The notes beneath the pieces were generated by a model. The model was not told the DNA's origin. It saw only the letters and a list, made by a program, of their open reading frames with translations, and searched no databases. A DNA stretch of 63,166 bases, filler included, from Collodictyon triciliatum (lineage: Eukaryota): NCBI GenBank assembly GCA_043381765.1. It is 4 parts of 4 records of this genome, joined end to end, with 100 filler letters (N's around TTAATTAATTAA, not from the genome) between each part and the next. Parts side by side here need not be neighbours in the genome. Positions count along the whole stretch, not along the records: positions 21,982 to 43,855 come from JBHJMP010001169.1; 3 more parts are not named here. The stretch is one strand, 5' to 3'. A program made the translations under genes and the position numbers. The first letter of the stretch is position 1, and each line of letters begins with the position of its first letter. Positions 21,982-43,855 of this stretch are shown in pieces.

Positions 21982-22787
21982 ACACCAGAAAATCTCAAAG
22001 CTTCTCTCCTGATTTCATCATTTGAAAGCTCAATCATGTATTTCATACTTCCTACGTTATCAATTAATCTTTGATCTATCTTTTCAAAGAAGATCCGAAC
22101 GAAGGATTCATTATATTCACATCTACTAATCGCAAATTCTATGTTTGTTTTTTTCATTTCTTGGTGAAGAACTATTAGTCCAAGAAATACAGTAATGTTA
22201 TTATTATAATCATTATATTGAGAAGAAACTATAGCTCTTAAATAGTATTTACCATCATTATCTTTAAGTATTCGGTAATATTTTACATGTGCCTTTTTAT
22301 CCTTAAAAATCTCTCTTAGCATGTCCAAATTCTTATAAACAAGCTCATTGTAGCCTTTATTAGTAAGAGTACTGGCATATTTATCCATTCCAAATGTGCT
22401 TTCAAAAAAATCACTTTTGGATGAATAAATTAACTCTGCTGTGAAATGATTTTTACCAGTAATTGCTAATGCCTTGGTATCTTCTATACCAGTAAATTCT
22501 ATTAGAAAGCTTTCGTCATCTCCTTTTTTGAATATCAGAGAGTTATAATCTGATTTAAGATCAAATTTTTTATATTCTCTATTCTGCGCTTTAATGGAGT
22601 TAACTAATTTTGCAGCTCCTGGAATATTAATAAATTCTCCACTTATTTCATCTACTTGTAGTAGCTCTGCTAAGCTAGGATAGAACTCATTATCTGCAAC
22701 TAAGTCAATGACGGCTTGAACAGATATGCCTTGGTCTTGTGTAGGAATGTCTTTTAAAGAAAAAGATTTCTTCCTGAAATTACTCAT
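21982..22787 (-). CDS. Hypothetical protein, 5' part (continues at 43749-43302 on circularisation; ~417 aa in total; possibly distant DUF932-like)
   Basis: The C-terminal end MKYMIELSNDEIRREALRFSG is identical to the start of ORF 43302..43814. Confidence 0.85.
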
Positions 22788-22868
22788 ACTATTGAGGATA
22801 AATTATGTAAGAATTTATTTTCAGCTCAATATATGACTATTCTGCTAATTAATCATCATATCAATAGG

Positions 22869-23840
22869 TTATCGAAGAATTTTATTTTTATTATTTATCT
22901 GGCATACCAATAAAAACTCGTTAAAATCTTTATGACTACAGTATATGCCTGAGTAGTCTACCGTAAACAGCGGGGCTTGTTCCTGAATCTGGTCCCTTAT
23001 CTTGTGGCCGGTCTTATCATTATCCAAGTATAAGGATATTTTGGTGTACTTACCGGCCTTCAGCAGCTCTTTAGTTCGCTCGTGAAAAGAAGCAGAATTC
23101 ATAATGATGGTATCACCCTGCACAAGTTCCTGAAATTTGGCTAAATCAACTGACTGATAGTAGGTCAATGCTGAAAGAAAATCCATAAAGCCTTCAAAAA
23201 CAGCGGCCTTATCCCCTATTTTACCCTTTATGAAGCAAACACCTTTTTTACCAATGGAGCTTTTAAAATAGGCATTTCTGATCTCATAGCCGTTATTTTC
23301 ATTTTTGATGCCTATGGCAAAGTATGTTTTACCATTCTCATTATTACGATATTGTACTTCAACCAGGTACTTAGCTGCAATGATCGGATCAATACATCTT
23401 TGTTCAGTTAGATATTTGATAAGGGCTTTACCGTTAAAAGAATCAACGCCAAGGGGTGAAATCTCTCTTAATACGAACGTTTCGGAATTCTCGGGTAGTG
23501 TGGTAGCCCTTGGGGGTGTTTTTGCCTTTGTAGCGTCAAAAAACAGGCTTTGTTGATTGCTGCCTAATAACCTTTCCAGATTGTATAGTGCTCCTTTGAC
23601 ATCGGTATTGTAATAGCGCATGGCAAAATCTATGACAGTGCCTCCTGTATCGCCAAAATCATTCCATATCCACATAGCGGAATTATTGCGGTATGTAGTG
23701 TGGAAAGAAGCATCAACTTCATTCCTGAATGGGGATTTGTACCAAAGCTCATAGCCACCCTTCAAGGTTTTAACAGGTTGATGGCCAAGGTTTGACAAAA
23801 TGTCAGGTAATGAAAGTTTCTTTGCCTGTTCAGAATTCAT
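22869..23840 (-). CDS. DNA primase, Toprim domain (Bacteroidota mobile-element type)
   Basis: Degenerate zinc-finger-like N-terminus YKSPFRNE..ASF...WNDFG..GGTVIDF, GYEIRN, Toprim motifs VFEGFMDFLS and YLDND..G, and HKDFNEFL. Confidence 0.88.
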   Translation of the reverse strand: MNSEQAKKLSLPDILSNLGHQPVKTLKGGYELWYKSPFRNEVDASFHTTYRNNSAMWIWNDFGDTGGTVIDFAMRYYNTDVKGALYNLERLLGSNQQSLFFDATKAKTPPRATTLPENSETFVLREISPLGVDSFNGKALIKYLTEQRCIDPIIAAKYLVEVQYRNNENGKTYFAIGIKNENNGYEIRNAYFKSSIGKKGVCFIKGKIGDKAAVFEGFMDFLSALTYYQSVDLAKFQELVQGDTIIMNSASFHERTKELLKAGKYTKISLYLDNDKTGHKIRDQIQEQAPLFTVDYSGIYCSHKDFNEFLLVCQINNKNKILR

Positions 23841-23926
23841 AATAATATATAATCCATAGACTAAAACCTAAATCTTCTTTTTTCTTTTCACCAGCAAAAA
23901 TCACCGAAGGCGAAAACTTCAAAAAA

Positions 23927-42877: not shown

Positions 42878-43262
42878 GGAAAAAATGTCAGCATTAGCAA
42901 AACCGCAACCGGTTTACAGGGATGAGGAAGAACAATCCGATGACAGCGGCAGTATTTTCTGGGGTAGAGAGAGATCATCCAACCGCCGGGCGGTGATGCT
43001 TGACCTGCATTTGAAAAATGGGGAGTATATTTCTTTACCATACTCCTACATGACCAAGATCAAATTTAACCCTTCGATTGGTTTAGAGCTTTACATTTCA
43101 GGAAATTACATCAAAATATCAGGGCGGAACCTGCATGAGATATATAATTATCTCTGCCGCCATGGCGTGACCTTTATCATGGCTAATCCCAATGATAAGG
43201 ATATGACGGATGAACAGCAAACCTATGTTAAGGATATTGAGGTAACTGAAAGTGATTCGTAA
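42846..43262 (+). CDS. Hypothetical protein coupled to the relaxase
   Basis: 138 aa, overlaps the relaxase 3' end by 32 nt; beta-rich core MLDLHLKNG...LPYSY...FNPS.G...ISGRNL. Confidence 0.75.
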   Translation: MGLKEQLQRDKEKMSALAKPQPVYRDEEEQSDDSGSIFWGRERSSNRRAVMLDLHLKNGEYISLPYSYMTKIKFNPSIGLELYISGNYIKISGRNLHEIYNYLCRHGVTFIMANPNDKDMTDEQQTYVKDIEVTESDS

Positions 43263-43301
43263 AGAAGCAGTGCTACATCTAAGAAACACTTACCTATCTC
43301 T

Positions 43302-43855
43302 TCATTTAGTGTAGTTACCCTGCCTTCCTTTTCGTTCTATTAAGCCTTCATACAAAAGATAGCGTAAATACTCCTTAGCCTCTATGTCAGATACGATAAA
43401 ATCAATTTTCTTTAAGATCGTAAATAAATCATGTAACGAATTTACTCGCTGATTTAACTCTTTGAGAATTTTATCAGAATATTGGCGTAGCTCGTTTTGC
43501 TTTAGATTTTTTACCTTATTTTCAATAAAAGATCTAACTTCATCAGGTGATTTTATTTCACCTATAGTTTTAGCATCCTCATACATTTCTTTTTCTCTTT
43601 CTACATAATTCGAAAGAGAAGCTAATTTTTCTATTGCCTTCTCCGGCGTTAAAGCATGGCTAATCGCAGAAAGGTCAGACCTTAAGTTACTAGGTTTAAT
43701 ATATATACCTTCTTCATTATCTTCTCCTTCACCATATACTATGGATGCTACACCAGAAAATCTCAAAGCTTCTCTCCTGATTTCATCATTTGAAAGCTCA
43801 ATCATGTATTTCATACTTCCTACGTTATCAATTAATCTTTGATCTATCTTTTCAA
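43302..43855 (-). CDS. Hypothetical protein, 3' part of the gene spanning the circle junction (see 21982-22787)
   Basis: Same reading frame through the 106-bp overlap. Confidence 0.85.

What the first reader, a model, noticed from the sequence alone, without database searches (positions are those of the whole stretch)
21982..43855. A complete ~21.8-kb circular bacterial plasmid hidden in a protist assembly
Seen: an exact 106-bp terminal overlap (21982-22087 = 43750-43855) that rejoins one split gene in frame, plus full replication, partition, resolution and mobilisation functions, flanked only by artificial spacers. Inference: a closed plasmid of a co-cultured, prey or symbiotic bacterium, most likely Bacteroidota (primase type, TAnnTTTG promoters at 28687, 28711 and 39965, Gln-start exported protein). 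Such contigs are easily missed by plasmid databases.
Basis: partly seen in the sequence, partly recalled or inferred. Interest (0 to 1): 0.7.

Follow-up and report, generated by a model that had tools for sequence, protein, structure and literature searches.

The report
Stowaway Bacteroidota plasmid in protist assembly
This contig is a complete, uncatalogued 21.8-kb plasmid of a freshwater Runella/Emticicia-like bacterium that was sequenced along with a protist; it is an ordinary kind of hitch-hiking plasmid with anti-phage cargo, but its predicted transfer origin points the opposite way from textbook relatives.

Summary
Confirmed. The 21,874-bp contig has an exact 106-bp end overlap (circle of 21,768 bp). 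The gene cut by the junction reads through as 417 aa, and 18 of 18 homologues (405-426 aa) are continuous there. It encodes RepA_C with nine iterons, ParA, a primase, a resolvase, AbiE, an ABC-3C/Lamassu-like trio, a MOBF relaxase and a coupling-protein-like ATPase. It has no mating-pore genes, so it is mobilisable, not conjugative. Closest relatives: Runella plasmid pSP2_3 (relaxase 71% aa) and an Emticicia MAG contig (14 of 22 protein queries hit), so the host is probably Spirosomataceae. PLSDB holds no near copy. No junction-spanning read was obtained. The TAnnTTTG motif is not enriched overall.

One planctomycete plasmid has it reversed. If R388 polarity holds, the relaxase gene enters the recipient first, which is atypical for MOBF. 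This is inferred, not shown. The scan's index held no look-alike DNA. Verdict: new member of a known kind; interest 0.35.

The parts
21982..22087 (.). Terminal direct overlap, left copy (106 bp)
43750..43855 (.). Terminal direct overlap, right copy (106 bp)
21982..22787 (-). N-terminal part of a 417-aa gene cut by the junction; DUF932-like fold; no Pfam hit over a cut-off
43302..43855 (-). C-terminal part of the same 417-aa gene
22869..23840 (-). Toprim primase-like protein, 323 aa; 67% identical to that of Runella pSP2_3
23841..24297 (.). Predicted replication origin: seven 17-bp iterons (23988-24281), DnaA-box-like TTATCCAC at 24074, 24147 and 24198, AT-rich flank. The 101-aa ORF over it is a shadow of the repeats.
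24298..25242 (-). RepA_C replication initiator, 314 aa (PF04796, 80.8 bits against cut-off 26)
25319..25335 (.). Single iteron upstream of repA (autoregulation inferred); another degenerate copy at 26625-26641 upstream of parA
25367..26560 (.). ACGT-core repeats, often 12 bp apart, flanking the par genes (10 of 14 such sites in the contig); centromere-like, inferred
25408..25755 (-). Small ParA partner (ParG-like by position; weak match in the Emticicia contig)
25777..26469 (-). ParA partition ATPase, 230 aa
26674..27297 (-). 207-aa exported protein (ATG at 27273), conserved in the Emticicia contig (59%)
27290..27460 (.). Strongly folding GC-rich intergenic stretch (z -4.9); a second at 28430-28680 (z -2.5); possible single-strand promoter or priming signals, untested
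27532..28338 (-). 268-aa protein of a small unnamed family (12 homologues; 50% in the Emticicia contig)
28678..28719 (+). Two 18-bp direct repeats holding the TAnnTTTG sites before abiEi (operator/promoter, inferred)
28742..30056 (+). AbiEi antitoxin and AbiEii nucleotidyltransferase toxin (type IV toxin-antitoxin / abortive infection)
30094..33085 (-). ABC-3C / Lamassu-like operon: 307-aa effector (CTD10-like), 89-aa MC6-like middle component, 600-aa DUF2326 SMC-like ATPase
33177..33860 (-). Small serine resolvase (ATG at 33833)
33863..33947 (.). Two 28-bp direct repeats upstream of the resolvase (res-site candidate)
34101..35937 (.). Two accessory membrane or exported proteins (326 aa +, weak LysM; 269 aa -)
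35934..37601 (-). 555-aa multi-pass membrane protein of an unnamed family (81 relatives) that follows the coupling-like ATPase in 9 of 12 related loci examined
37616..39151 (-). Coupling-protein-like ATPase without N-terminal membrane segments (likely ATG at 39052, 478 aa)
39069..39804 (.). 103-aa (-) and 143-aa (+) small genes, both also in the Emticicia contig and L022
39890..39920 (+). Candidate oriT/nic: 6-bp inverted repeat with 4-nt loop (39890-39905), then GAAGATGTCT; predicted nick near 39915/39916; points into the relaxase gene
39983..42877 (+). MOBF relaxase-helicase (ATG at 40007, 956 aa)
42846..43262 (+). 138-aa protein that follows the relaxase in 18 of 33 related loci; beta-rich, fold unassigned (weak PH-like matches)

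Best explanation
The contig is a closed, autonomous, probably low-copy plasmid of a freshwater Bacteroidota bacterium (probably Spirosomataceae, near Runella and Emticicia). The bacterium lived in the protist sample, and the plasmid survived in the assembly while bacterial chromosomes are largely absent. Shown from sequence and homology: gene content, iterons and the circular join. Inferred mechanism: RepA_C binds the iteron cluster beside repA to start theta replication, helped by the plasmid primase; single iterons before repA and parA give feedback; ParA, its small partner and the ACGT repeats partition copies; the resolvase resolves dimers at the repeats upstream of it; AbiE stabilises the plasmid and, with the ABC-3C/Lamassu-like trio, defends the host against phage. 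For transfer, the MOBF relaxase nicks at the hairpin-GATGTCT site, and the plasmid's own anchorless coupling-like ATPase (probably held at the membrane by the 555-aa neighbour) delivers it to the mating pore of a co-resident conjugative element. By analogy with R388 the plus strand is transferred and the relaxase gene enters first; this last step is the least certain (about 0.5).
For: Exact 106-bp overlap and in-frame 417-aa join, with 18 of 18 homologues continuous. The same assembly leaves a 121-bp overlap on its mitochondrion-like contig and none on 3 other window contigs. PF04796 RepA_C, ParA, Resolvase, TrwC/MobF (NF041492, 197.5 bits against 100), TraG-D_C and TrwB_AAD_bind over their cut-offs, AbiEi/AbiEii, DUF2326. 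Nine iterons, with a related origin in Runella and Emticicia. Runella pSP2_3 shares 5 of 22 protein queries at 54-71%; the Emticicia contig shares 14 of 22. No integrase or chromosomal core gene among 23 ORFs scanned. G000 has no DnaA or RecA match and no SSU rRNA match other than a mitochondrion-like 16S and an 18S, but does keep 4 small contigs with Bacteroidota T9SS tails. A public 2024 run holds the 22-33.9-kb part at 99%+ identity (25 of 27 laid records). nic-like motif in 13 of 33 loci, all upstream of and pointing into the relaxase, against 0-2 in 20 shuffles, with hairpin arms that vary in a compensating way.
Against: No read or contig was seen to cross the junction (only 20,000 of 21,874 bases could be laid, on fragmented low-depth contigs). 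No host chromosome is available, so the host is assigned by homology only. The TAnnTTTG motif is not enriched. The nic motif has 10 nt between hairpin and predicted nick against 9 in R388, and the planctomycete plasmid pK2D_1 has it reversed. The membrane partner is not universal: it is absent after the ATPase in Runella pSP2_3, and the Emticicia contig has unrelated membrane genes there. In L026 a DUF932 gene lies on the non-relaxase side of the motif. The LmuB-like ATPase has Walker B hhhHDG rather than the short-Lamassu consensus.
Confidence: 0.85

Rival explanations
1. An integrative mobilisable element: the circle is an excised form, or a collapsed assembly of a chromosomal island bounded by repeats.
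For: The same mobilisation module sits near tyrosine integrases in 4 of 12 related loci scanned (L023, L028, L033, L041). Homologues of the 417-aa gene occur on contigs of 0.4-3.9 Mb. The Emticicia relative shows no terminal overlap.
Against: No integrase among the 23 ORFs; only a 227-aa resolvase. A full replicon with iterons and partition genes is present. The junction falls inside a gene, not at an att-like site. No other contig of G000 matched the 19.9 kb searched. The nearest catalogued relative is a deposited plasmid.
Confidence: 0.08
2. A plasmid of an intracellular symbiont of the protist (for example the rickettsial symbiont noted by earlier scan reports, or a symbiotic Bacteroidota) rather than of a free-living co-cultured or prey bacterium.
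For: An earlier, unchecked note reports a Megaera plasmid in this assembly. The contig assembled in one piece, which suggests good depth.
Against: All best named matches are Bacteroidota, mostly free-living freshwater or sludge genera. No host-interaction genes (ankyrin, effector) were detected. Phage defence cargo fits free-living cells better (inference). Runs with small shares of the sequence are water and sludge metagenomes, but those shares are weak.
Confidence: 0.05
3. The plasmid reading is right, but transfer polarity is the usual one: the conserved motif is not the nick site, or the minus strand is nicked, so the relaxase gene enters last.
For: [quoted passage not shown] The spacing differs from R388 by one base, and polarity rests on analogy. 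pK2D_1 shows the canonical orientation with the same motif.
Against: The hairpin with 4-nt loop, TGTCT and a following purine match the R388 nic (PMC4176350, passages). ssb in Runella, ssb/DUF932/DUF2958 in the Emticicia contig and ArdC in L036 lie beyond the relaxase on the minus strand, that is, templated by a plus-strand T-strand. Because pK2D_1 and the others differ, one of the two arrangements must send the relaxase gene first if the motif is nic at all.
Confidence: 0.45
4. Bacterial DNA transferred into the protist's own genome.
For: None beyond its presence in the assembly.
Against: Separate contig with no eukaryotic flanks, intact operons without introns, circular join.
Confidence: 0.01

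Closest known systems
Runella sp. SP2 plasmid pSP2_3 (NZ_CP031033.1, 11,293 bp; PLSDB: mobilisable, MOBF)
   Same: RepA_C (54%), origin with related iterons, toprim (67%), MOBF relaxase (71%), coupling-like ATPase (59%, annotated hypothetical), the small gene after the relaxase (61%), the nic-like motif in the same orientation, GC 36%
   Different: Half the size; no match to ParA, resolvase, AbiE, ABC-3C or the 417-aa gene; carries ssb, a PIN toxin-antitoxin pair and a SEFIR/TIR (bSEFIR-like) gene between the relaxase module and toprim. Only 4% of the contig aligns by megablast, at 74%.
Emticicia sp. MAG contig JANNDY010000152.1 (50,735 bp, not annotated as a plasmid)
   Same: 14 of 22 protein queries match, in largely the same order, including RepA (62%), ParA, the 207- and 268-aa genes, AbiE, resolvase, coupling-like ATPase and relaxase (61%); a Lamassu system also lies beside the resolvase
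   Different: Its Lamassu is a different one (Cap4 effector, PADLOC LmuA/B/C hits; no tblastn match to this trio). It has extra Rep, ssb, DUF932, DUF2958 and YD-repeat genes, and no terminal overlap.
IncW plasmid R388 (RepA_C-type replicon recalled; MOBF relaxase TrwC)
   Same: MOBF relaxase-helicase with tyrosine pair and HUH motif; nic-like site with hairpin, 4-nt loop, TGTCT and a purine (PMC4176350, passages)
   Different: R388 is conjugative with an MPF-T system (PMC12282955 table passage). From recall, it has a membrane-anchored TrwB and its nic points away from the trw genes. Here there is no MPF, no anchor on the ATPase, and the motif points into the relaxase gene.
Short Lamassu / ABC-3C defence systems (PMC12663957, section 5 and passages read)
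   Same: Effector - small middle component - 600-aa SMC-like ATPase in one operon; Walker A Gx4GKS; no zinc hook, which some short clades lack
   Different: Walker B is hhhHDG, not hhhhD[Q/S/T/E]; the best PADLOC model is the candidate system PDC-M68B (E 5.5e-52), with LmuB far weaker (4.2e-12); effector and middle component hit no LmuA or LmuC model.
AbiE type IV toxin-antitoxin system
   Same: AbiEi (PADLOC E 1.9e-50) and AbiEii (E 5.5e-90; PF08843 over cut-off) as an overlapping gene pair
   Different: Nothing notable; short 137-aa antitoxin.

Membership tests
Autonomous circular plasmid | Closed circle (terminal overlap, gene continuity across the join) | tested here: met
Autonomous circular plasmid | Junction-spanning reads in the source library | tested here: inconclusive
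   only Logan contigs of other runs, none crossing the end; source reads not available
Autonomous circular plasmid | Replication initiator with adjacent iterons | tested here: met
   PF04796 80.8 bits against 26; 7 clustered and 2 single iterons
Autonomous circular plasmid | No integrase or chromosomal core genes | tested here: met
   0 of 23 ORFs in Pfam and NCBIfam scans
MOBF mobilisable plasmid | MOBF relaxase domain with tyrosines and HUH motif, fused helicase | tested here: met
   NF041492 197.5 against 100; PF08751 236.8; Y16/Y17/Y26/Y27 invariant in 3 of 3; HUH and Walker A found
MOBF mobilisable plasmid | Cognate oriT/nic with hairpin 5' of the nick | tested here: inconclusive
   Conserved candidate at 39890-39920; nicking not testable here
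Conjugative plasmid | Mating-pair-formation genes (VirB4-like ATPase, pore, pilus) | tested here: not met
   none among 23 ORFs; no TraM family match in G000
Type IV coupling protein | P-loop ATPase domain of the TrwB/TraD/VirD4 type | tested here: met
   TraG-D_C 26.9 against 22, TrwB_AAD_bind 21.2 against 20.5; Walker A and B; weak profile match to DotL, E 0.005; full-length TraD model far below cut-off
Type IV coupling protein | N-terminal transmembrane anchor (recalled as usual, not universal) | tested here: not met
   no hydrophobic segment; none in 14 of 16 relatives, one in 2
Type I partition system | Walker-type ParA, small DNA-binding partner, centromere repeats | tested here: inconclusive
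   ParA clear but 150 bits against cut-off 180; partner has no family hit; repeats present
AbiE type IV TA | AbiEi followed by AbiEii nucleotidyltransferase | tested here: met
Short Lamassu / ABC-3C | Effector - middle component - SMC-like ATPase of about 600 aa with Walker A Gx4GK[S/T] | tested here: met
Short Lamassu / ABC-3C | Walker B hhhhD[Q/S/T/E] (short Lamassu consensus) | tested here: not met
   FLIHDG at residue about 515; consensus
Short Lamassu / ABC-3C | LmuA C-terminal domain and LmuC homology | tested here: inconclusive
   MC6 25.4 against cut-off 27.2; CTD10 only by Atlas features, 0.97; 0 of 16 homologues hit CTD10 in Pfam; no PADLOC LmuA/C hit
Short Lamassu / ABC-3C | Anti-phage activity | not testable with these tools
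   needs a plating assay
DUF932 (PF06067) | Pfam profile match | tested here: not met
   0 of 20 alignment members
DUF932 (PF06067) | Same fold | tested here: inconclusive
   model of homologue P0001 (pLDDT 83) matches predicted viral DUF932 proteins at E 4e-9 to 1e-8, query TM 0.45-0.54, 9-14% identity; Atlas lead with DUF932 on 18% of members; no solved match

The most novel reading that the evidence does not exclude
The plasmid carries an undescribed, widespread MOBF hitch-hiker module shared by plasmids and integrative elements of Bacteroidota, Planctomycetes and others. It has a nic site pointing into the relaxase gene, so the relaxase gene enters the recipient first; a coupling ATPase split from its membrane anchor, which is supplied by a dedicated neighbouring membrane protein; and a conserved small adaptor encoded right after the relaxase. 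Leading-region analyses that assume 'relaxase last' would read these elements backwards.
Probability: 0.35. Interest if true: 0.6.

Novelty: new member of a known kind. Interest (0 to 1): 0.35.

Why it matters
As an object it is ordinary: a bacterial plasmid left in a eukaryotic assembly, useful mainly as a contamination flag and as one more complete replicon for a thinly sampled group (1 near match among 72,556 PLSDB records). Comparison with two relatives suggests a shared backbone with swappable defence cargo (two different Lamassu-type systems beside the resolvase; bSEFIR in Runella). The more useful result is a candidate oriT for a MOBF clade; my two literature searches aimed at it found no description. 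If the polarity holds, it would correct how leading regions are assigned for these elements and give a testable shuttle origin for environmental Bacteroidota.

Tried and rejected
Junction reads: Logan contigs of 4 runs laid on 21982-41981 showed no record running over the end and no joints; uninformative at 4-7x depth. In run X1 the stretch 34-39.3 kb had little or no cover, which does not prove absence; the best holder may not be independent of the source sample.

A loose end that looked like a dif-type site at 30084 was checked: only one half occurs, at 34054; rejected as a short chance match.

TAnnTTTG as a host marker: not enriched. The 101-aa ORF at 23966-24271 is a shadow of the iterons.

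A scan of metagenome contigs with the N-half of the split gene found 0 relatives among 222 stretches. A viral-contig scan with the relaxase found 0 of 27. Rfam found no RNA family in the window.

Fold searches: the 417-aa family has no solved match; the 138-aa protein gave only Z up to 4.2. A complex prediction of the coupling-like ATPase with the membrane protein gave no answer (score 0.00, alignments not used).

The Runella 268-aa hypothetical protein is not a homologue of the 268-aa protein here (no tblastn hit). The K2D gene after its ATPase is not a homologue of the 555-aa protein. Helper search in G000: no TraM match. In related loci, 86 ORFs of 230 aa or more from 12 of the 33 loci gave no VirB4 or pore family at E 1e-6; one T2SSE-type ATPase in L036.

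Literature: 'AGATGTCTG'+relaxase gave 0 papers; the orientation search gave 1 (listing only); DUF932+plasmid gave 11 with no functional study evident from the listing; YfjB is ParB-like, not DUF932 (passages). The ABC-3C classification paper was not held, so ABC-3C definitions rest on Pfam names and recall. Supplements of the Lamassu paper (clade tables), which I did not open, may already list this clade.
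Full report
Positions 21982-22087 and 43750-43855 are identical over 106 bases and the match extends no further. The contig is flanked by N44-TTAATTAATTAA-N44 spacers and is all of G000:C1169. Trimmed, it is a 21,768-bp circle of 36.2% GC, and the minus-strand gene starting at 22787 reads through the join to 417 aa. This join is supported independently of the assembler: all 18 homologues found are 405-426 aa, the nearest matches the two halves at 81% and 89%, and 18 of 18 are ungapped through the aligned overlap. As a control, the mitochondrion-like contig C834 ends in a 121-bp direct overlap, while 0 of the 3 other window contigs do. 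What I could not obtain is a read across the junction: contigs of 4 public runs laid on 20,000 of the 21,874 bases showed none running over the end.

Gene content. Scans of 23 ORFs give a RepA_C initiator, a toprim primase, ParA, a small serine resolvase, AbiEi/AbiEii, an MC6-like plus DUF2326 ATPase operon, a MOBF relaxase-helicase and an ATPase that passes the cut-offs of two coupling-protein domains. None is an integrase, a chromosomal core gene or a mating-pore gene. Seven 17-bp iterons cluster between repA and the primase, with single copies before repA and parA; the origin aligns with those of two relatives. Ten of the contig's 14 [AG]ACGT[CT] sites flank the par genes. Two 28-bp repeats precede the resolvase and two 18-bp repeats precede abiEi. 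The functions of these repeats are inferred from position.

Relatives and host. Megablast finds 1 match among 72,556 plasmids, covering 4% at 74% identity: Runella sp. SP2 pSP2_3, which shares 5 of 22 protein queries at 54-71%. A 50.7-kb Emticicia MAG contig shares 14 of 22. Both genera are Spirosomataceae (Runella; Emticicia recalled), so that is the likely host family. G000 has no DnaA or RecA match, and its only SSU rRNA matches are a mitochondrion-like 16S (my reading of its sequence) and an 18S (the rRNA search used a stricter first look). It does keep 4 small contigs with Bacteroidota T9SS tails. This fits an assembly from which bacterial chromosomes were mostly removed while unmatched pieces stayed (inference). 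Earlier scan notes, unchecked, place the protist near Diphylleia and report a Chitinophagaceae fragment and a Megaera plasmid in the same assembly. A 2024 run holds 76% of the sampled words of 21982-31000, and 25 of its 27 laid records are 99%+ identical, so a near-identical backbone exists in public data; that run may not be independent.

Defence cargo. AbiE is clear. The three-gene operon at 30094-33085 has the layout, size and Walker A of short Lamassu (PMC12663957, section 5 read) and resembles ABC-3C CTD10 clusters. However, its Walker B is hhhHDG, MC6 is just under its cut-off, and its best PADLOC model is the candidate PDC-M68B. It probably works like Lamassu; membership in the published short-Lamassu clades is not established. 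The Emticicia contig has a different, Cap4-type Lamassu beside its resolvase, and Runella carries bSEFIR, which suggests swappable defence cargo on a shared backbone. The split gene's family has no Pfam match, but a model of its closest homologue resembles predicted viral DUF932 proteins; its function is open, and an establishment role is a guess.

Mobilisation. With a relaxase and its own coupling protein but no pore, the plasmid fits the 'hitcher' class that can dock directly on a helper's secretion system (PMC12282955, passages). The 138-aa gene follows the relaxase in 18 of 33, and the ATPase is present in 14 of 33. The ATPase lacks a hydrophobic segment here and in 14 of 16 relatives examined. 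In 9 of 12 metagenomic loci examined it is followed by a member of the unnamed membrane family of the 555-aa protein, though not in Runella or Emticicia. That this protein anchors the ATPase is inference. Four of 12 loci scanned have tyrosine integrases nearby, so the module also serves integrative elements; none of 86 ORFs hit a VirB4 or pore family.

Candidate origin of transfer. Upstream of the relaxase, window, Runella and Emticicia share a 6-bp inverted repeat with a 4-nt loop followed by G(A/G)AGA(T/A)GTCTGT. The R388 nic site is a hairpin with a 4-nt loop, 9 nt ending in TGTCT, then the nick and a purine (PMC4176350, passages); here the spacer is 10 nt. A pattern fitted on the first 7 hits matches 13 of the 33 loci with at most one mismatch, against 0-2 in 20 shuffles. 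Six of the 13 were not used to fit it. All 13 lie 50-3,519 bases upstream of the relaxase start on its coding strand, and the hairpin arms vary with compensation. Of 20 loci holding the relaxase start, 7 had no such hit (two with short flanks, one with a two-mismatch hit). Two hits are near-duplicates of the named relatives. The planctomycete plasmid pK2D_1 has the same motif reversed. If the polarity is that of R388, the plus strand is transferred and the relaxase gene enters first, against the usual rule that it lags (PMC11541004, passages). Consistent with this, ssb, DUF932, DUF2958 and ArdC genes of three relatives lie beyond the relaxase on the strand an incoming plus strand would template; L026 is a counter-example by position. 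Relaxase-first transfer is recalled for some MOBV plasmids, untested here. Two targeted searches found no paper describing this motif; most subscription papers are not in the library.

Verdict. A real, complete, uncatalogued mobilisable Bacteroidota plasmid that contaminates a protist assembly (confidence 0.85); a new member of a known kind. The plasmid itself is ordinary. The conserved transfer module with its inverted origin is the part worth testing (probability 0.35, interest 0.6 if true). Overall interest 0.35.

Noticed in passing
G000:C834 (L002, L054, L057): An 85,502-bp contig with a mitochondrion-like SSU rRNA and a 121-bp terminal direct overlap: probably the protist's complete circular-mapping mitochondrial genome.
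   Followed up: partly
G000:C11745, C10292, C5763, C8287 (L009-L013): Four small contigs (36-41% GC) with Bacteroidota T9SS C-terminal domains; possible remnants of the plasmid's host or of other Bacteroidota.
   Followed up: no
L016:5681-9287 (Emticicia contig): A Cap4-type Lamassu operon directly beside the resolvase, the same slot that holds a different ABC-3C system in the window; the contig looks like an unrecognised ~50-kb plasmid.
   Followed up: partly
window 33947: One contig of run X2 leaves the window sequence exactly at the end of the second res-like repeat, hinting at a module boundary; single contig, low depth.
   Followed up: no
window 39888-40832: A contig of run X1 matches the oriT and relaxase start at about 97% but has 363 unmatched bases before it and a 12-base insertion just after the predicted nick, hinting at a sister element with other upstream genes.
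   Followed up: no
window 27290-27460 and 28430-28680: GC-rich, strongly folding intergenic stretches upstream of the 207- and 268-aa genes; could be single-strand promoters or priming signals.
   Followed up: partly
L029:4142-7312: An ORF near a related relaxase in a metagenome contig hits a Tc toxin TcA C-terminal domain.
   Followed up: no
window 12001-17000: A GC-rich stretch (up to 61%) with long overlapping open frames in the neighbouring eukaryotic contig.
   Followed up: no
L005:1658-2983 (Runella pSP2_3): The coupling-protein-like ATPase is annotated only as hypothetical in RefSeq, so typing tools miss it.
   Followed up: yes
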